64,000 nucleotides of DNA, taken from the NCBI RefSeq assembly GCF_024223415.1, contig NZ_CP100500.1. The stretch is one strand, 5' to 3'. The DNA comes from Escherichia coli (GTDB lineage Bacteria > Pseudomonadota > Gammaproteobacteria > Enterobacterales > Enterobacteriaceae). The translations under genes and the position numbers were made by a program. How positions within the stretch are numbered: position 1 is the stretch's first letter; every line of letters starts with the position of its first letter. Under the pieces are notes generated by a model. The model had not been told where the DNA came from, did no database searches, and was given only the letters and a program-made list of their open reading frames with translations. Shown here piece by piece: positions 1,435 to 47,181 of this stretch.

Positions 1435-1578
1435 TCACCACGGGATAAACTGGTTAATGGCACAAATTCCGCTGAAAAATTGTACATCCTGATCGCACAT
1501 CATGTTGAATACCTGCGCCCAAAGCAGCAAGCAAGCCAACACCACGACAACCAGAACGACCCATCGAAACTTTTTCAC
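1435..1578 (-). CDS. mgrB: PhoQ-inhibitory small membrane protein MgrB (47 aa, GTG start)
   Basis: Manual translation gives [47 protein letters not shown]; not in ORF track because under 60 aa. Confidence 0.85.
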
Positions 1579-41554: not shown

Positions 41555-43327
41555 TCAGTTATTCTCAGCCTTCTTCACAACCTGAATGCTCAGCTCAGCC
41601 AGTGCAGTCGGGTTAGCAAAGCTCGGTGCTTCAGTCATCAGACACGCTGCCGCCGTGGTTTTCGGGAAGGCGATAACGTCACGGATATTGTCGGTGCCGG
41701 TCAGCAGCATGGTCAGACGGTCAAGACCGAATGCCAGACCTGCGTGCGGCGGAGTACCGTATTTCAGAGCGTCGAGCAGGAAGCCGAATTTCTCGCGCTG
41801 TTCCTCTTCGTTGATACCCAGAATACCAAACACCGTCTGCTGCATATCACCATTATGGATACGTACTGAACCACCGCCCACTTCGTAACCATTGATGACC
41901 ATATCGTAAGCGTTCGCCACCGCATTTTCCGGTGCAGCTTTCAGCTCTGCAGCCGTCATGTCTTTCGGTGAGGTGAACGGATGGTGCATTGCCGTCAGGC
42001 CGCCTTCACCGTCGTCTTCAAACATCGGGAAGTCGATAACCCACAGCGGTGCCCATTTGCTTTCGTCGGTCAGACCAAGGTCTTTACCCACTTTCAGGCG
42101 CAGTGCGCCCATCGCGTCGGCAACAATTTTCTTGTTATCGGCACCGAAGAAAATCATATCGCCATCTTGCGCGGCAGTACGATCCAGGATGGCTTCGATG
42201 ATTTCTGCATTAAGGAACTTCGCTACCGGGCTGTTGATACCTTCCAGACCTTTCGCGCGTTCGTTAACTTTGATGTAAGCCAGACCTTTCGCGCCGTAGA
42301 TTTTAACGAAGTTACCGTATTCGTCGATCTGCTTACGGGTCAGCGATGCGCCACCCGGAACACGCAGAGCGGCAACGCGACCTTTCGGATCGTTCGCCGG
42401 ACCTGCAAATACTGCAAACTCAACAGATTTCAGCAGATCAGCAACGTCGGTCAGTTCCATCGGGTTACGCAGATCCGGTTTATCAGAACCATAACGGCGT
42501 TCGGCTTCCGCAAAGGTCATTACCGGGAAATCGCCCAGATCCACGCCCTTCACTTCCAGCCACAGATGGCGCACCAGCGCTTCCATCACTTCACGCACTT
42601 GCGGCGCGGTCATGAAAGAAGTTTCCACATCGATCTGAGTAAATTCAGGCTGACGATCAGCGCGCAGGTCTTCGTCACGGAAGCATTTAACGATCTGATA
42701 GTAGCGGTCAAAGCCGGACATCATCAGCAGCTGTTTGAACAACTGCGGGGATTGTGGCAGCGCGTAGAATTTACCTTTGTGCACACGAGAAGGCACCAGG
42801 TAGTCACGCGCGCCTTCCGGCGTGGCTTTGGTCAGCATCGGAGTTTCGATGTCGAGGAAGCCGTGGTCATCCATAAAACGGCGCACCAGGCTGGTGATTT
42901 TAGCGCGGGTTTTCAGGCGCTGAGCCATTTCCGGGCGACGCAGGTCGAGGTAGCGGTATTTCAGACGCGCTTCTTCGGTGTTGACGTGGTTAGAGTCAAG
43001 CGGCAGAACATCTGCGCGGTTGATGATAGTCAGCGAGGACGCCAGCACTTCGATTTCGCCGGTCGCCATATCGCGGTTAATATTTTTTTCGTCACGCGCA
43101 CGTACGGTGCCCGTGACCTGAATGCAGAACTCATTACGCAGTTCAGAGGCCAGCTTTAACGCGTCCGCACGATCCGGATCGAAAAATACCTGCACGATAC
43201 CTTCGCGGTCGCGCATATCGATGAAGATCAGGCTACCAAGATCACGACGACGGTTGACCCAACCACACAGAGTCACCTGCTGCCCCACGTGGGACAAACG
43301 GAGCTGTCCACAATATTCTGTACGCAT
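41555..43327 (-). CDS. aspS: aspartate--tRNA ligase
   Basis: 590-aa class II aaRS. Confidence 0.97.
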
Positions 43328-43636
43328 GAGATATCCCTTAACTTAGCTGCCGGCGGATGCCCCCTGCTGCGCAGGTGACCAAGTCGCAGCGTTAGCTGTA
43401 TGTCACAACTGAATGAAAAAAGGCGGCTATTATACTGGAAATTCTGCCGCACCGTAAGAGCCTGGCCCGCGCTGGAACGCCTCGTTACCACTTTATATCG
43501 GGCCTGAAATCAGACTCTACGCCAGTTTGCTATAAAGGTGTTGCCCGAACTCATAAAAATTAACAAAATTTGTCGTTCCGCCATCGGCTAATCGCATTAA
43601 GGTGTGAGGCACGATTTTGTTTTTTCAGGAGTCATT

Positions 43637-44203
43637 ATGCTTGAACTTAATGCTAAAACCACTGCGCTGGTGGTGATCGATTTACAAGAAGGCATCTTAC
43701 CTTTTGCCGGTGGTCCACATACTGCCGATGAGGTAGTTAATCGCGCCGGGAAGCTGGCGGCGAAATTTCGCGCCAGCGGTCAGCCCGTGTTTCTGGTGCG
43801 AGTTGGCTGGTCTGCCGATTACGCCGAAGCATTAAAACAGCCGGTTGATGCCCCCTCCCCCGCTAAAGTGTTGCCCGAAAACTGGTGGCAACATCCAGCT
43901 GTATTAGGTGCAACTGACAGTGATATCGAAATCATCAAACGTCAGTGGGGTGCGTTTTACGGTACGGATCTGGAGTTGCAATTACGCCGCCGAGGTATCG
44001 ATACAATAGTGTTATGTGGGATCTCGACCAATATCGGTGTTGAATCCACCGCCCGCAATGCCTGGGAACTTGGCTTTAATCTGGTGATTGCCGAAGACGC
44101 CTGTAGTGCCGCCAGCGCCGAGCAACACAATAACAGCATTAATCATATCTACCCGCGCATCGCCCGTGTGCGTAGCGTGGAAGAGATCCTTCACGCGTTA
44201 TGA
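43637..44203 (+). CDS. yecD: isochorismatase-family hydrolase YecD
   Basis: 188-aa product from [17 protein letters not shown]; the ORF track begins at an upstream GTG. Confidence 0.88.
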
Positions 44204-44310
44204 TTTACATCGGTCTACCGCAATGGTCGCATCCTAAATGGGTGCGGTTGGGGATCACCAGCCTTGAAGAGTATGCCCGCCACTTTAACTGCGTGATACG
44301 GGATTTTTAA
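44200..44310 (+). pseudogene. yecE: yecE 5' fragment, disrupted by prophage insertion
   Basis: Reads [32 protein letters not shown], then diverges from K-12 yecE and stops after 5 more codons; AT-rich phage-like DNA follows. Confidence 0.8.
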
Positions 44311-44411
44311 AAATCACTAAAGAACGCCCAAGAGCATGAGTTTTCTTTAGCATAATCAAAGCGTTGAATTTCCATGCCATATGAAAATCGGCAAAGTTCA
44401 TATGTAACAAA

Positions 44412-44471
44412 GTGTCCCAATCATGCCCCAAATTGCCCCACAACAGACATTTTTGCCCCATGCATGCCCCA
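44412..44471. repeat. phased direct repeats of TG(C/T)CCCA near the prophage-host junction
   Basis: Five copies (TGTCCCA, TGCCCCA x4) starting at 44413, 44424, 44434, 44454, 44465, spaced at ~10-bp multiples. Confidence 0.6.
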
Positions 44472-44492
44472 AAAAATCACTTTCCCTCACCC

Positions 44493-44542
44493 TTGACACT
44501 GTTTATCCATACAGTTAAAAATAATACTGTATACAAACACAG
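44493..44542 (+). promoter_or_regulatory. putative SOS-regulated promoter of phage dinI: -35 TTGACA with two LexA-box-like palindromes
   Basis: TTGACA at 44493-44498; CTGTTTATCCATACAG at 44499-44514; CTGTATACAAACACAG at 44527-44542; both fit CTGT-N8-ACAG. Confidence 0.6.
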
Positions 44543-44557
44543 TGTAGAGGGATTTTT

Positions 44558-44806
44558 ATGCGTATTGAAATCTGTATCGCTAAAGAAAAATTCAGCAAAA
44601 TGCCAAAAGGCTCTGTACCTGCTCTACAACAGGAAATGTCTCGCCGTATCAGAAAACAATACGACGATGTGGAGGTTATAGTAAAATCCGCCAGTAATGA
44701 CGGACTGACCATTTTAAGAGCCGTAGATAAAGAAAACGCTCAGAAGTTCATACAGGAAACGCTGCAGGAAGTCTGGGAAACTGCTGATGACTGGTTTTTT
44801 CACTAA
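44558..44806 (+). CDS. DinI-family DNA-damage-inducible protein (prophage-encoded)
   Basis: 82-aa [22 protein letters not shown]...[16 protein letters not shown], resembling DinI incl. C-terminal acidic WExADDWF motif; good SD (AGAGGG). Confidence 0.8.
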
Positions 44807-44873
44807 TCAGGACGTCAAATAAATAACAACTGTAATTATTCTCTCCAAATTAACAATCTCTGTATACATACTC

Positions 44874-44910
44874 AGGCGTGTTCACGCATACAACACGCCT
44901 TTCTGATATT
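44874..44910 (+). terminator. intrinsic terminator downstream of dinI-like gene
   Basis: AGGCGTGTT-cacgcatac-AACACGCCT followed by TTCTGATATTT. Confidence 0.55.
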
Positions 44911-44982
44911 TAATTGTTTACAGAAATATTGCCGAATAAAAATATAAACCATAGTCTTAAAAAAATAATAATTCCACTATAG

Positions 44983-45078
44983 CTATCCCAGAACAACCAG
45001 TACAAATAATAAAAGACATATCACAGCAACACTCCACACTGACAGCGCAAAAATAAATGCCGCCTTTGTTATCTTCAT
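44983..45078 (-). CDS. hypothetical 31-aa hydrophobic peptide (speculative)
   Basis: Manual translation: MKITKAAFIFALSVWSVAVICLLLFVLVVLG; single predicted TM helix; weak SD; lies in an AT-rich spacer. Confidence 0.2.
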   Translation of the reverse strand: MKITKAAFIFALSVWSVAVICLLLFVLVVLG

Positions 45079-45189
45079 ATACAAGCAACCTGTCCTGATA
45101 ATCACCAACTCATGTTTTATTCTTAACCATTCGTCACAAATACAACAAAAAATAACAGCAGCAGCACCGATATCACAATATAAGATACA

Positions 45190-45645
45190 TTATTCAACAC
45201 CTGAATCCCCCGCAGCTTCTCTCCCCTTTATAAAACGCCCCTTCCGGAATCCAGACCGCTGCAGTGCACGACGAAGATGACCGTATACCGTCTTGTCATT
45301 CTGCCCCGTCTCTTCTGTAATCTCCGCAATACTTAAACCTCTGTAATACCGGTTCAGTACCGCTCTGCGCTCTTCCAGCGTCAACACACCTCCGGCCGCT
45401 CTCAGATTCAGCATCGACTTATTCAGAATACAGCAGGCCTCTCCGGTAAAAAGAATACGAACAATATCTGTATACTCATCATCACAGAATACAAAATAAT
45501 ATCTGAATGACCTGCCTGACTGCACCCTTCTTCTGTCTGATATGGCATCTTCTATATATCTGATTCGACTGCTTACGGTTCCAAATATCTCTCGCAGGGC
45601 TTTTTCAAAATAAATATCTCTCGTCGCCAGGATTATATCCAGCAT
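45190..45645 (-). CDS. LuxR/GerE-type HTH transcriptional regulator (prophage accessory)
   Basis: 151-aa ORF; C-terminal LTLEERRAVLNRYYRGLSIAEITEETGQNDKTVYGHLRRALQR fits the GerE/LuxR HTH pattern; Arg codons almost all AGA/AGG/CGA and frequent ATA Ile. Confidence 0.6.
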   Translation of the reverse strand: MLDIILATRDIYFEKALREIFGTVSSRIRYIEDAISDRRRVQSGRSFRYYFVFCDDEYTDIVRILFTGEACCILNKSMLNLRAAGGVLTLEERRAVLNRYYRGLSIAEITEETGQNDKTVYGHLRRALQRSGFRKGRFIKGREAAGDSGVE

Positions 45646-45661
45646 CTCTGTACCTCATTAT

Positions 45662-45682
45662 ATCCCGGGGGACTCCCCCGGG
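45662..45682. other. GC-rich hairpin between eib-like gene and regulator
   Basis: TCCCGGGGG-ACT-CCCCCGGGA, 9-bp perfect stem, no U-tract. Confidence 0.5.
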
Positions 45683-45705
45683 ACAGATATCTAAATCCTG
45701 ACCTG

Positions 45706-46833
45706 TCAGAACTCAAAATTCACACCAGCATTCCACGATGCGGATGACCCACCTGCAGCAACTGCAACTTTTCCTGCCACATTCTCTGTGAAACGGTAGC
45801 CCACGCCCACCGCAATGGCCTGCTCATCACGGTAACCACCAACGGCTGCTGTCGCGTTAAATTTTCCAACACTGTATGGCTGGAAAAGACCGGCCAGTGC
45901 CGCGCTCTGGGCTGCACTCTCCCTTAACTCCTTCCGGTTCTCTTTAATCTGCTCCTGCATATTATTCATTCTCTCTGTCGCCATCTTCTGCCAGGCTTCC
46001 GTCAAATCCAGACGATGACTGTTATTCCTTATCGCTGCTGTATTTGAGGCTATTGCTGCATCCGTCTGCGCCCTGTTCTTCACAAGCACATCGCTGAGAT
46101 GTTCTGCCTGGCTTTTCACCTCGTTACGGACAGTACGCACACTGCTGTCTGTATATGTACGCGTCTCGTCCAGAACATCCGACTTCACCGCATCCGTGTA
46201 TTCCTGCGCAGAAGCCCTGGCAGCTGTAATATTACCGTTAAGTCTGTTTTCTGCCGATTCCACTCGACTCTTAGCATCAGCAACAGCATCACGGTAGACA
46301 GCTCCTATCTCACCGCGCAGGGCATCCCCCGACTCCCGTACAGCATCTGCAATGGCGTTGTCCATCTGTCCTTTTGTGGCCGCATCACTATCCTTAACAC
46401 CATCTGAAACATTTATAATCCGGCGGGTTTCCGGTGCACCATCAACTGAAAATCCATATCCTGAAGGACCGGCCCCTACAGAAAGTACATTGCTTTCTCC
46501 ATTCACCTGAGAGCCATACCCCAGAGCGACACTGTTGTCTGCATTAAAAACAGCTGTATTATTTCCCACAGCCATGGATTTATCCGCATCCCAAATTATT
46601 GCATCGGAACCAACAGCAAAGTTTTTTCCAGTAACACTACCATCACTGTTAAAATTTCCATTTCTGTCAACCACAGTTGCACTTTCAAGTGAATGAGTGC
46701 CATTATCAATCCAGATAATACCCGTCGATGACTCAGTAAGTGTTTTATGAGCCAAAGCCTGAGATGAGAGCAGCAGGGCCACACTCACTGCCAGCGCGCT
46801 TTTCTTTAAAAAAGCATCACGTCTTTTAAGCAT
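45706..46833 (-). CDS. trimeric autotransporter adhesin, Eib-like (E. coli immunoglobulin-binding protein family) candidate
   Basis: 375-aa product from MLKRRDAFLKKSALAVSVALLLSSQALA (signal peptide; SD AGGAG 9 nt upstream); coiled-coil stalk; C-terminal YadA-like anchor ...WNAGVNFEF; Eib genes are known prophage cargo; the ORF track extends 18 codons upstream. Confidence 0.7.
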   Translation of the reverse strand: MLKRRDAFLKKSALAVSVALLLSSQALAHKTLTESSTGIIWIDNGTHSLESATVVDRNGNFNSDGSVTGKNFAVGSDAIIWDADKSMAVGNNTAVFNADNSVALGYGSQVNGESNVLSVGAGPSGYGFSVDGAPETRRIINVSDGVKDSDAATKGQMDNAIADAVRESGDALRGEIGAVYRDAVADAKSRVESAENRLNGNITAARASAQEYTDAVKSDVLDETRTYTDSSVRTVRNEVKSQAEHLSDVLVKNRAQTDAAIASNTAAIRNNSHRLDLTEAWQKMATERMNNMQEQIKENRKELRESAAQSAALAGLFQPYSVGKFNATAAVGGYRDEQAIAVGVGYRFTENVAGKVAVAAGGSSASWNAGVNFEF

Positions 46834-47181
46834 TCTGTTATTCTCCTGTATTATTACTTCACCAGCCAGAACGGTAGTGCGGAGCAAAAATACAGTGATA
46901 AGAATCCTCTTTTATTAATTTAATAATATCAGGAATATTATTGTGTATAATATGCGCCCTCAATTTAAGCAGCAGAAAAGCAATGACGCGAAAATCATTA
47001 AAATACATAAAGATAAAACATCATAACTATAATTATAATAAGCGCGCTTATTTTAGCATCTGAACATTTAAAGTACTGCTATCACAAAACAATAAAAATC
47101 CTGGGTAATATCTCTGATGATTGAATGAGAAATTCACGATGTCTGGTGAGAATTCTGTTCAAAACGAGGAATGCAGACGTA

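What the first reader, a model, noticed from the sequence alone, without database searches (positions are those of the whole stretch)
44807..45190. AT-rich spacer with a 31-codon hydrophobic ORF downstream of the regulator gene
The ~380-bp gap between dinI and the regulator gene is strongly AT-rich and has no ORF of 60 aa or more. Manual reading of the minus strand gives MKITKAAFIFALSVWSVAVICLLLFVLVVLG (44983-45078), one TM helix in size and composition, like type I toxins and other small membrane peptides. The SD is weak and an ORF of this length can occur by chance, so this is a low-confidence lead.
Basis: seen in the sequence. Interest (0 to 1): 0.25.

Follow-up and report, generated by a model that had tools for sequence, protein, structure and literature searches.

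The report
Two tiny membrane-peptide ORFs after a prophage regulator
The 31-codon hydrophobic ORF is really there and is too membrane-helix-like to be chance, and it has an overlooked 25-codon neighbour with a stronger ribosome-binding site, but both occur only in a young, E. coli-only adhesin/regulator module, so they remain unproven candidate small membrane proteins.

Summary
The dinI–regulator gap (44807-45190) has 33% G+C and no ORF longer than 43 aa. MKITKAAFIFALSVWSVAVICLLLFVLVVLG is encoded at 44983-45078 (-).

ORF length alone means nothing: 70% of shuffles give an ATG ORF of at least 31 codons. The transmembrane-like hydrophobicity is not chance (0.3% of shuffles; T at codon position 2 in 19 of 31 codons).

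Its GTG overlaps the regulator's stop, and its GGGGG Shine-Dalgarno (-8.6 kcal/mol) is in the top 0.6% of short ORFs in the window. Two tandem hydrophobic ORFs never appeared in 3000 shuffles.

Both ORFs accompany the orphan sigma-70-region-4 regulator and the YadA/Eib-like adhesin in 183 of 5426 complete E. coli genomes, in three downstream contexts. Diversity is too low (95-100% identity) to test selection.

There is no family, Rfam or homolog match, and no evidence of an antisense RNA, so a type I toxin reading is unsupported.

ORF2 is also in frame with the regulator, behind a single TAA. A relic membrane anchor is therefore a live rival.

Best reading (about 0.45): unannotated small single-pass membrane peptides at the 3' end of the regulator transcript.

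The parts
44983..45078 (-). Two N-terminal lysines, then a 26-residue hydrophobic stretch running to the C-terminus.
   Evidence: KD 19-residue window 3.01; T at codon position 2 in 19 of 31 codons; local shuffle p = 0.0003. Regional shuffle 0.3%. Second of 485 short ORFs. Called as an unnamed gene in public assemblies, with variants V28I, L30M, I20M and F9L.
45089..45096 (-). Weak SD-like AGGACAGG upstream of the ORF2 ATG, spacing about 9-10 nt.
   Evidence: -4.5 to -5.0 kcal/mol, about the top 8% of short ORFs in the window.
45079..45122 (-). 44-nt spacer between the ORF1 stop and the ORF2 start. It carries the only non-triplet indel seen, apart from the homopolymer indels in L037/L038, and one T/C SNP.
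   Evidence: L006 has the 1-nt deletion just after the ORF1 TAA.
45123..45200 (-). The GTG lies 8 nt upstream of the regulator's TAA (GTGTTGAATAA), the layout typical of translational coupling.
   Evidence: KD window 2.85; T at codon position 2 in 17 of 25 codons; local shuffle p = 0.002. Third of 485 short ORFs. The only indel inside it in the E. coli genome copies is an in-frame CTG deletion (L004, L005).
45206..45212 (-). Shine-Dalgarno CGGGGGA for ORF1, 5-6 nt upstream of the GTG, inside the regulator's last codons. Its G5 run (45207-45211) is also the site where a 1-nt deletion fuses the regulator to ORF1.
   Evidence: -8.6 kcal/mol, top 0.6% of 485 short ORFs, stronger than the SDs of the regulator (-6.9) and dinI (-6.3). 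Fusion variants P0020 and P0028.
45190..45645 (-). 151-aa regulator with a C-terminal sigma-70 region 4 HTH and an orphan N-terminal half. Its TAA stop (45190-45192) is followed in frame by 37 stop-free codons and then ORF2.
   Evidence: Pfam PF08281, 2.2e-07. PGAP name 'sigma factor-like helix-turn-helix DNA-binding protein'. No homolog below 94% identity. In-frame relation.
45664..45682 (.). G+C-rich palindrome CCCGGGGG-ACT-CCCCCGGG between the adhesin and the regulator. On the minus strand it is followed by TATAAT and then the regulator's GAGG SD.
   Evidence: Read directly. Function was not tested.
45706..46887 (-). YadA-like (Eib-type) trimeric autotransporter adhesin, the first gene of the module.
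   Evidence: PF03895 YadA_anchor 2.4e-16 and NF033478. PGAP names it YadA C-terminal domain-containing / YadA-like family protein. The module order adhesin, regulator, ORF2 recurs in assemblies.
44875..44899 (+). Hairpin GGCGTGTT-N9-AACACGCC followed by TTTCTGATATTT on the + strand: the dinI terminator. It is also the only candidate stop signal for the convergent minus-strand transcript in this context.
   Evidence: Read, and forms in the fold. It is not in the simple terminator scan.
44558..44806 (+). SOS-type dinI-like gene, convergent with the module. It bounds the gap but is not part of the module.
   Evidence: PF06183 1.8e-19 and NF007893. The segment 44790-44985 occurs in only 22 genomes, always next to the module.

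Best explanation
The AT-rich 'spacer' is the coding 3' end of a mobile adhesin/regulator module, in the order YadA/Eib-like adhesin, orphan sigma-70-region-4 regulator, ORF1, ORF2, all on the minus strand. It encodes two unannotated single-pass inner-membrane peptides of 25 and 31 aa. ORF1 is probably translated by coupling to the regulator: its GTG overlaps the regulator's stop and a strong GGGGG SD sits 5-6 nt upstream. ORF2 would start 44 nt further on from a weak SD, possibly helped by ribosomes terminating at ORF1. By analogy with MgtR, MgtS, MgrB, SafA and UgtS, the peptides most likely bind and tune a larger partner, either the co-encoded regulator or the adhesin export path. Shown: the ORFs, their non-random TM-type codon phase, the SD strengths, their constant linkage to the regulator, and the lack of any homolog. 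Inferred: co-transcription, translation, membrane insertion and any function.
For: (1) Hydrophobicity is far beyond what composition gives. A window of at least 3.0 occurs in 0.3% of regional dinucleotide shuffles, and two tandem same-strand hydrophobic ORFs in 0 of 3000. Shuffling each ORF's own bases gives p = 0.0003 and 0.002, with T concentrated at codon position 2.
(2) Among 485 ORFs of 25-50 codons in the 64-kb window they rank second and third. The genuine small membrane protein MgrB ranks fifth. Ranks 1 and 4 are off-frame artefacts inside znuA and znuC.
(3) An independent signal: the ORF1 SD (-8.6 kcal/mol, 5-6 nt spacing) is in the top 0.6% of short ORFs and is stronger than that of the regulator.
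(4) Both ORFs are present wherever the regulator is: 182 of 183 genomes carry at least 80% of the region, as do all 28 aligned copies. This holds in three downstream contexts (dinI, MliC, IS256). Homology between the dinI context and the other contexts ends about 12 nt after the ORF2 stop.
(5) Indels respect the frames: an in-frame CTG loss in ORF1, and a 1-nt deletion only in the spacer.
(6) No terminator was predicted between the regulator and ORF2. In the other contexts a hairpin plus TTT lies about 100 nt beyond ORF2.
(7) Narrow distribution does not exclude the class: SafA is found primarily in E. coli, and UgtS only in a subset of Salmonella serovars (PMC12648545).
Against: There is no expression or translation evidence of any kind. 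All copies are 95-100% identical, so purifying selection cannot be shown. The three DNA-level SNPs in ORF2 are all nonsynonymous (A6V, V17I, V28I) and none is synonymous, which fits neutrality and argues against strong constraint. There are no homologs outside this module and no family hit. PGAP annotates neither ORF in any genome inspected. The ORF2 SD is weak. The periodicity of the ORF1 segment could also be read as T-rich third positions in the regulator's frame. ORF2 is in frame with the regulator, so it could be a relic.
Confidence: 0.45

Rival explanations
1. Relic coding sequence. The region is the decaying remainder of a longer gene. One version is an ancestral membrane-anchored regulator of about 220 aa, truncated by the TAA at 45190-45192, with ORF2 as its former C-terminal anchor. 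The other is a two-helix membrane protein of about 68 aa, split by a frameshift into ORF1 and ORF2. In both versions the hydrophobic codon phase is inherited and no longer used.
For: ORF2 is in the regulator's frame, with only the TAA and 37 stop-free codons between them. By my own estimate, about 0.04 given that ORF2 exists, from the base composition. The stretch before ORF2 in that frame is rich in R, K and H, like a cytoplasmic loop. All three ORF2 SNPs are nonsynonymous. One copy tolerates an IS3 insertion in ORF2. The module is too young for a relic to have decayed.
Against: No longer homolog exists anywhere. The only fused forms, P0020 and P0028, arise from indels that include homopolymer runs (G5, T6) and look like long-read assembly errors. 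In the regulator's frame the ORF1 segment would have 71% T at third positions, against 30% in the regulator itself, and a cysteine-rich product. In ORF1's own frame it is an ordinary TM helix. The strong, well-spaced SD before ORF1 would be a coincidence. In-frame extensions of at least 68 codons follow 20% of long ORFs in this window.
Confidence: 0.2
2. Untranslated AT-rich 3' UTR or junk. The hydrophobic ORFs are an accident of a T- and G-rich, C-poor strand in horizontally acquired DNA and are never made.
For: The minus strand is 40% T and 10% C, and every minus-strand ORF in the gap is somewhat hydrophobic. Off-frame hydrophobic artefacts do occur in this window, at 34915-35055 and 36086-36229. 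There is no annotation, no homolog, and no measurable selection.
Against: Composition-preserving shuffles almost never reproduce even one such ORF, and never two. The signal is phase-specific: the other two frames of the same bases score 1.05-2.0. The ORF1 SD is independently exceptional.
Confidence: 0.2
3. Type I toxin or other toxic membrane peptide. ORF2, ORF1 or both depolarise the membrane when made, are held in check by an antisense or structured RNA, and stabilise the prophage or island.
For: Size and composition match the toxin class. Prophage-borne type I systems are known (PMC12648545). A promoter-like site on the + strand at 45074-45102 would give an RNA antisense to ORF1 and to the ORF2 leader, and it is kept in the other context. 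In the minimum-energy fold the ORF2 SD pairs with the 3' end of ORF2.
Against: That promoter match is 9 of 12, and the number of such sites is below chance expectation (3 found, 4.5 expected). No + strand terminator was predicted in the gap. Folding is no better than shuffles on either strand. There is no Rfam, Pfam, NCBIfam, PHROGs or PADLOC hit. No promoter of its own was found. ORF2 lacks the polar C-terminal tail that most type I toxins have (my own knowledge).
Confidence: 0.08

Closest known systems
Small single-pass membrane proteins that modulate larger partners: MgtR (30 aa), MgtS (31 aa), UgtS (34 aa), MgrB (47 aa), SafA (65 aa). Source: PMC12648545.
   Same: Size of 25-31 aa, one predicted TM helix, and for ORF2 a short basic N-terminus. 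They lie inside an operon with a regulatory gene, as UgtS is expressed from a bicistronic operon. The distribution is lineage-restricted, like SafA and UgtS. MgrB itself is in this window (1435-1578, -) and scores similarly on the same hydrophobicity scan.
   Different: No partner, phenotype, expression data or sequence similarity is known. There are two peptides in tandem. ORF1 has no charged residue at all. The module is confined to about 3% of complete E. coli genomes.
Type I toxin-antitoxin toxins (TisB, Ibs, ShoB, Hok/Ldr, ZorO)
   Same: A short hydrophobic ORF in AT-rich DNA on a mobile element. ORF1 loosely resembles the near-uncharged Ibs peptides (my recollection, not tested).
   Different: No antitoxin RNA, own promoter, structured leader or family match was found. 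The ORFs sit at the 3' end of another gene's transcript.
ECF sigma / anti-sigma gene pairs
   Same: A protein with a sigma-70 region 4 domain is followed at once by a translationally coupled single-pass membrane protein gene.
   Different: The regulator lacks a recognisable sigma region 2 and scores far below every sigma-factor cut-off. At 25 aa, ORF1 is too short to hold an anti-sigma domain.
Membrane-anchored one-component regulators (ToxR, CadC, TcpP)
   Same: Read-through of the TAA, or a +1 shift at the G5 run, would append a TM helix to a DNA-binding protein.
   Different: The stop codon is present in every clean copy. TAA followed by T is a strong stop context in E. coli (my own knowledge). 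The anchor would be C-terminal with no periplasmic domain.

Membership tests
Bacterial small membrane proteins (Pro-SMP finder criteria, PMC10903887) | ORF of 60-180 nt | tested here: met
   ORF1 is 78 nt and ORF2 is 96 nt, stops included. Criteria.
Bacterial small membrane proteins (Pro-SMP finder criteria, PMC10903887) | One membrane-anchoring hydrophobic segment of 15-30 residues | tested here: met
   Hydrophobic cores of 18 residues (ORF1) and 26 residues (ORF2). KD 19-residue windows are 2.85 and 3.01, beyond shuffles. Phobius and TMHMM were not available.
Bacterial small membrane proteins (Pro-SMP finder criteria, PMC10903887) | Sequence conservation in other microorganisms | tested here: not met
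   Only copies at least 94% identical were found, in E. coli genomes, gut metagenome contigs and one viral contig. No phage or plasmid match.
Bacterial small membrane proteins (Pro-SMP finder criteria, PMC10903887) | Start codon with a ribosome-binding site | tested here: met
   Strong for ORF1 (-8.6 kcal/mol, top 0.6%). Weak for ORF2 (-4.5 to -5.0, about top 8%).
Bacterial small membrane proteins (Pro-SMP finder criteria, PMC10903887) | Demonstrated translation and membrane localisation | not testable with these tools
   No ribosome profiling or proteomics is available for a strain carrying the module. A literature search for the peptide strings found nothing.
Type I toxin-antitoxin system | Small hydrophobic toxin ORF | tested here: met
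Type I toxin-antitoxin system | Antisense or adjacent antitoxin RNA gene with its own promoter and terminator | tested here: inconclusive
   One 9-of-12 promoter-like site on the + strand (45074-45102), no better than chance. No + strand terminator predicted in the gap. The + strand RNA is unstructured (z = +1.45).
Type I toxin-antitoxin system | Similarity to a described toxin or antitoxin family | tested here: not met
   No hit in Rfam, Pfam, NCBIfam, PHROGs or PADLOC.
Type I toxin-antitoxin system | Toxicity on overexpression | not testable with these tools
   Needs an experiment.
ECF sigma / anti-sigma pair | Sigma factor with regions 2 and 4 | tested here: not met
   Only region 4 matches (PF08281). 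Sigma-factor models score 12-21 bits against cut-offs of 43-350.
ECF sigma / anti-sigma pair | Downstream membrane protein with a cytoplasmic anti-sigma domain | tested here: not met
   ORF1 is 25 aa with four residues before the helix. No domain hit.

The most novel reading that the evidence does not exclude
The orphan region-4 regulator and the two mini-TM ORFs form one regulatory device. One form: the peptides act as a minimal membrane partner, a stripped-down anti-sigma-like tether, that controls the regulator and through it Eib-type adhesin expression. The other form: rare recoding makes a tail-anchored version of the regulator, by +1 slippage at the G5 run into ORF1 or by read-through of the TAA into the in-frame ORF2. 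The three reading frames are arranged so that either event yields a DNA-binding protein with a C-terminal TM helix.
Probability: 0.06. Interest if true: 0.6.

Novelty: new member of a known kind. Interest (0 to 1): 0.3.

Why it matters
If they are translated, these would be two new lineage-restricted small membrane proteins carried by prophages and islands next to an immunoglobulin-binding-type adhesin and its orphan regulator. That would add a cheap, testable handle on how this virulence-associated module is controlled. It would also be another case where annotation pipelines miss ORFs under 35 codons. ORF1, at 78 nt, is to my knowledge below the minimum gene length of a common gene caller (Prodigal, 90 nt). 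If they are not translated, the region is simply an AT-rich 3' UTR and nothing changes.

Tried and rejected
- Rfam scan of 43000-47000 at E <= 1: nothing.
- Pfam, NCBIfam, PHROGs and PADLOC on both peptides: only noise, Doppel at 0.016 and phrog_29225 at 0.3.
- Comparative test through distant relatives of the regulator, to ask whether they also carry downstream mini-TM ORFs. This was impossible: the word-indexed search, exhaustive phmmer over 1.84 billion representatives, tblastn against phages and a viral-contig scan found nothing below 94% identity except weak matches to the HTH region alone (E about 3e-4).
- Peptide homolog search with the 41-aa form of ORF2: only near-identical copies and a contig-edge artefact, P0032.
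- Phage and plasmid collections: no DNA match.
- dN/dS-type test: 28 copies aligned, but only three SNPs in ORF2 and none in ORF1, so there is no power.
- ORF1 and ORF2 as tandem paralogs: alignment no better than shuffles, p about 0.09.
- Structured RNA or riboswitch reading: folding z-scores of -1.2 and +1.45.
- Defining a moron boundary from prophages that have the dinI-proximal spacer but lack the module: none exist, since the spacer occurs in only 22 genomes, always with the module.
- The natural 'fusion' proteins P0020 (220 aa) and P0028 (95 aa) as evidence for a longer gene. Rejected because P0020 arises from indels in homopolymer runs (G5 to G4, T6 to T7), and P0028 comes from an assembly (L038) whose neighbouring genes are fragmented.
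- Lipoprotein signal peptide reading of ORF2: AVIC is not a lipobox and only 10 hydrophobic residues follow (by inspection).
- Literature: the Eib/EibG papers searched do not describe the regulator or the downstream ORFs. The peptide strings appear in no paper.

Full report
**Setting.** The window is E. coli chromosome. yecD (43604-44203) is followed by a truncated yecE (44200-44310). PGAP marks the matching feature 'incomplete, missing C-terminus' in a 99.6%-identical genome. From my own knowledge, yecE is a known lambdoid-phage integration site, so a prophage begins here.

Its first genes are:
- a dinI-like gene (44558-44806, +; PF06183);
- on the minus strand, a YadA/Eib-like trimeric autotransporter (45706-46887; PF03895);
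- on the minus strand, a 151-aa protein with a sigma-70 region 4 HTH (45190-45645; PF08281).

Tail-fibre genes lie just beyond the adhesin on the same strand. This is the usual place for prophage cargo genes.

**Checking the observation.**
- The gap 44807-45190 has 33% G+C, against about 45-55% in the flanks.
- No ORF in the gap exceeds 43 aa.
- The minus strand encodes MKITKAAFIFALSVWSVAVICLLLFVLVVLG at 44983-45078, here called ORF2.
- Its SD is indeed weak: -4.5 to -5.0 kcal/mol, 9 nt from the ATG.

**Is it more than chance?** Length alone is not: 70% of dinucleotide-preserving shuffles of the gap contain an ATG ORF of at least 31 codons. The membrane-helix character is.
- An ORF that long with a Kyte-Doolittle 19-residue window of at least 3.0 appears in 0.3% of shuffles.
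- Shuffling ORF2's own bases reaches the observed value in 0.03% of trials. T sits at codon position 2 in 19 of 31 codons, against 8 and 11 at positions 1 and 3. The other two frames of the same bases score only 1.05 and 1.78.
- Among all 485 ORFs of 25-50 codons in the 64-kb window, ORF2 ranks second.
- The scan has real discriminating power. Rank 5 is MgrB (1435-1578), a proven 47-aa membrane protein. Ranks 1 and 4 are off-frame artefacts inside the His/Asp-rich parts of znuA and znuC.

Rank 3 in the same scan is a second ORF 44 nt upstream on the same strand: 45123-45200, MLNNVSYIVISVLLLLFFVVFVTNG.
- T is at codon position 2 in 17 of 25 codons, with a local shuffle p of 0.002.
- Its GTG lies 8 nt before the regulator's TAA (GTGTTGAATAA).
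- It is preceded at 5-6 nt by CGGGGGA, which pairs with the anti-SD at -8.6 kcal/mol. That is stronger than the regulator's own SD (-6.9) or dinI's (-6.3), and in the top 0.6% of the 485 short ORFs.
- SD strength and hydrophobicity are independent properties, so ORF1 is the better candidate of the two.
- Two non-overlapping hydrophobic ORFs on one strand never arose in 3000 shuffles.
- ORF1 and ORF2 are not detectably related to each other.

**Distribution.** The 276-bp region occurs in 183 of 5426 complete E. coli genomes, at up to 7 places per genome and always at 95-100% identity. It is absent from the phage and plasmid collections. PGAP annotates only the regulator. ORF2 has been called as an unnamed gene on a few hundred short assembly contigs.

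I aligned 28 copies from genomes, metagenomes and one viral contig. The module sits in three downstream contexts:
- dinI, as here (22 genomes);
- an MliC lysozyme-inhibitor gene;
- an IS256 remnant.

Both ORFs are present in every context. Homology between the dinI context and the others stops about 12 nt past the ORF2 stop, so the mosaic junction lies at the ORF boundary. In the non-dinI contexts a hairpin (GTGACCGTC-CTG-ACGGTCAC plus TTT) lies about 100 nt beyond ORF2. No terminator is predicted between the regulator and ORF2. This places both ORFs inside the regulator's transcription unit, by inference.

**Selection.**
- ORF2 shows three DNA-level SNPs: A6V, V17I and the common V28I. All are nonsynonymous and conservative, and none is synonymous. 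Protein-level variants F9L, I20M and L30M also exist.
- This fits neutrality. It would be unlikely under strong constraint, although with T at position 2 almost any first- or third-position change keeps a hydrophobic residue.
- ORF1 has no SNP and one in-frame CTG deletion.
- The single 1-nt deletion falls in the spacer.
- One decayed locus has an IS3 element inserted after codon 5 of ORF2.

**Homology.** There is none. No family matched in Pfam, NCBIfam, PHROGs or PADLOC, and no Rfam hit was found. The ORF2 search of 5.8 billion proteins found only near-identical copies. The regulator is itself an orphan, with nothing below 94% identity in the word-indexed search, in exhaustive phmmer over 1.84 billion representatives, or in tblastn against phages. 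I could therefore not ask whether distant relatives keep the same architecture.

**A complication.** Translating 44983-45645 in one frame gives the regulator, one TAA, 37 stop-free codons and then ORF2. ORF2 is thus in frame with the regulator. ORF1 is in the +1 frame, and loss of one G from the G5 run (45207-45211) joins the regulator to it.

Public databases hold a 220-aa 'regulator' (P0020) and a 95-aa fusion (P0028). P0020 differs by G5 to G4 plus T6 to T7. P0028 comes from an assembly whose neighbouring genes are fragmented. I read both as long-read sequencing errors.

The frame relation still keeps a rival alive: ORF2 could be the remnant of a C-terminal membrane anchor of a once longer regulator, or ORF1 plus ORF2 could be a split two-helix gene. 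Three points argue against this.
- No longer homolog exists.
- In the regulator's frame the ORF1 segment would have 71% T at third positions, against 30% in the regulator.
- In-frame open extensions of at least 68 codons follow 20% of long ORFs in this window.

**Type I toxin reading.** Only size and composition fit.
- No promoter of its own was found.
- The one + strand promoter-like site (45074-45102, 9 of 12 matches) is no better than chance: 3 sites found against 4.5 expected.
- No + strand terminator was predicted in the gap.
- Neither strand folds better than shuffles.

**Verdict.**

| Reading | Probability |
|---|---|
| ORF1 and ORF2 are unannotated small single-pass membrane peptides at the 3' end of the regulator transcript. 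ORF1 is translationally coupled. Function is probably modulatory, by analogy with MgtR, MgtS, UgtS, MgrB and SafA (PMC12648545). | about 0.45 |
| Relic coding sequence | about 0.2 |
| Untranslated AT-rich 3' UTR | about 0.2 |
| Toxic or type I peptide | about 0.08 |

It remains an untested candidate in a narrow, young module, so interest is modest.

Noticed in passing
window 45190-45645 (-): The 151-aa sigma-70-region-4 regulator is an orphan. No homolog below 94% identity was found in 5.8 billion clustered proteins, in 1.84 billion representatives read by phmmer, or in 50,697 phage records. Only the HTH gives weak matches. A weak PHROG match (phrog_6585, E = 3e-4) covers its N-terminal half.
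   Followed up: partly
window 45207-45211 and 45144-45149 (-); L037, L038: Public assemblies contain a 220-aa regulator–ORF1–ORF2 fusion (P0020) and a 95-aa regulator–ORF1 fusion (P0028). P0020 is created by indels in the G5 and T6 homopolymer runs. Most likely these are long-read errors that PGAP then annotated as real proteins.
   Followed up: yes
window 1435-1578 (-): mgrB, the known 47-aa PhoQ-inhibiting membrane protein (sequence recognised from my own knowledge), is in the window. It served as an internal positive control for the hydrophobic small-ORF scan.
   Followed up: partly
window 34915-35055 (+) and 36086-36229 (+): Two very hydrophobic short ORFs (46 and 47 aa) are off-frame or antisense by-products of the His/Asp-rich codon runs in znuA and at the end of znuC. 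They show that such artefacts do occur.
   Followed up: partly
window 44499-44514 and 44527-44542 (+): Two CTGT-N8-ACAG LexA-box-like sites lie upstream of the prophage dinI-like gene. The first abuts the TTGACA -35 hexamer at 44493-44498.
   Followed up: no
window 44420-44475 (+): Four close copies of TGCCCC(A) lie between the truncated yecE and dinI, near the prophage/host junction. They may be recombinase arm-type binding sites.
   Followed up: no
window 45664-45682: A perfect G+C-rich palindrome, CCCGGGGG-ACT-CCCCCGGG, lies between the adhesin stop and the regulator start. On the minus strand it is followed directly by TATAAT and the regulator's SD. It could be an attenuator or terminator, or an mRNA-stabilising hairpin.
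   Followed up: no
window 46859-47008 (-); L029, L033, L035 about 1031-1184: Gene callers repeatedly call a 49-aa ORF (MYFNDFRVIAFLLLKLRAH...) in the very AT-rich stretch (26% G+C) just upstream of the adhesin gene. It is probably promoter DNA, but this was not examined.
   Followed up: no
L008, L003, L017, L021 (about 100 nt 3' of ORF2): In the non-dinI contexts a hairpin, GTGACCGTC-CTG-ACGGTCAC followed by TTTAAAG, lies downstream of ORF2. It is a candidate terminator for the module that is missing from the window's dinI context.
   Followed up: partly
The adhesin–regulator–ORF module is present at up to 7 places in one genome. In short-read assemblies it sits on contigs of only 2-7 kb, so it behaves as a repeat that breaks assemblies.
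   Followed up: no
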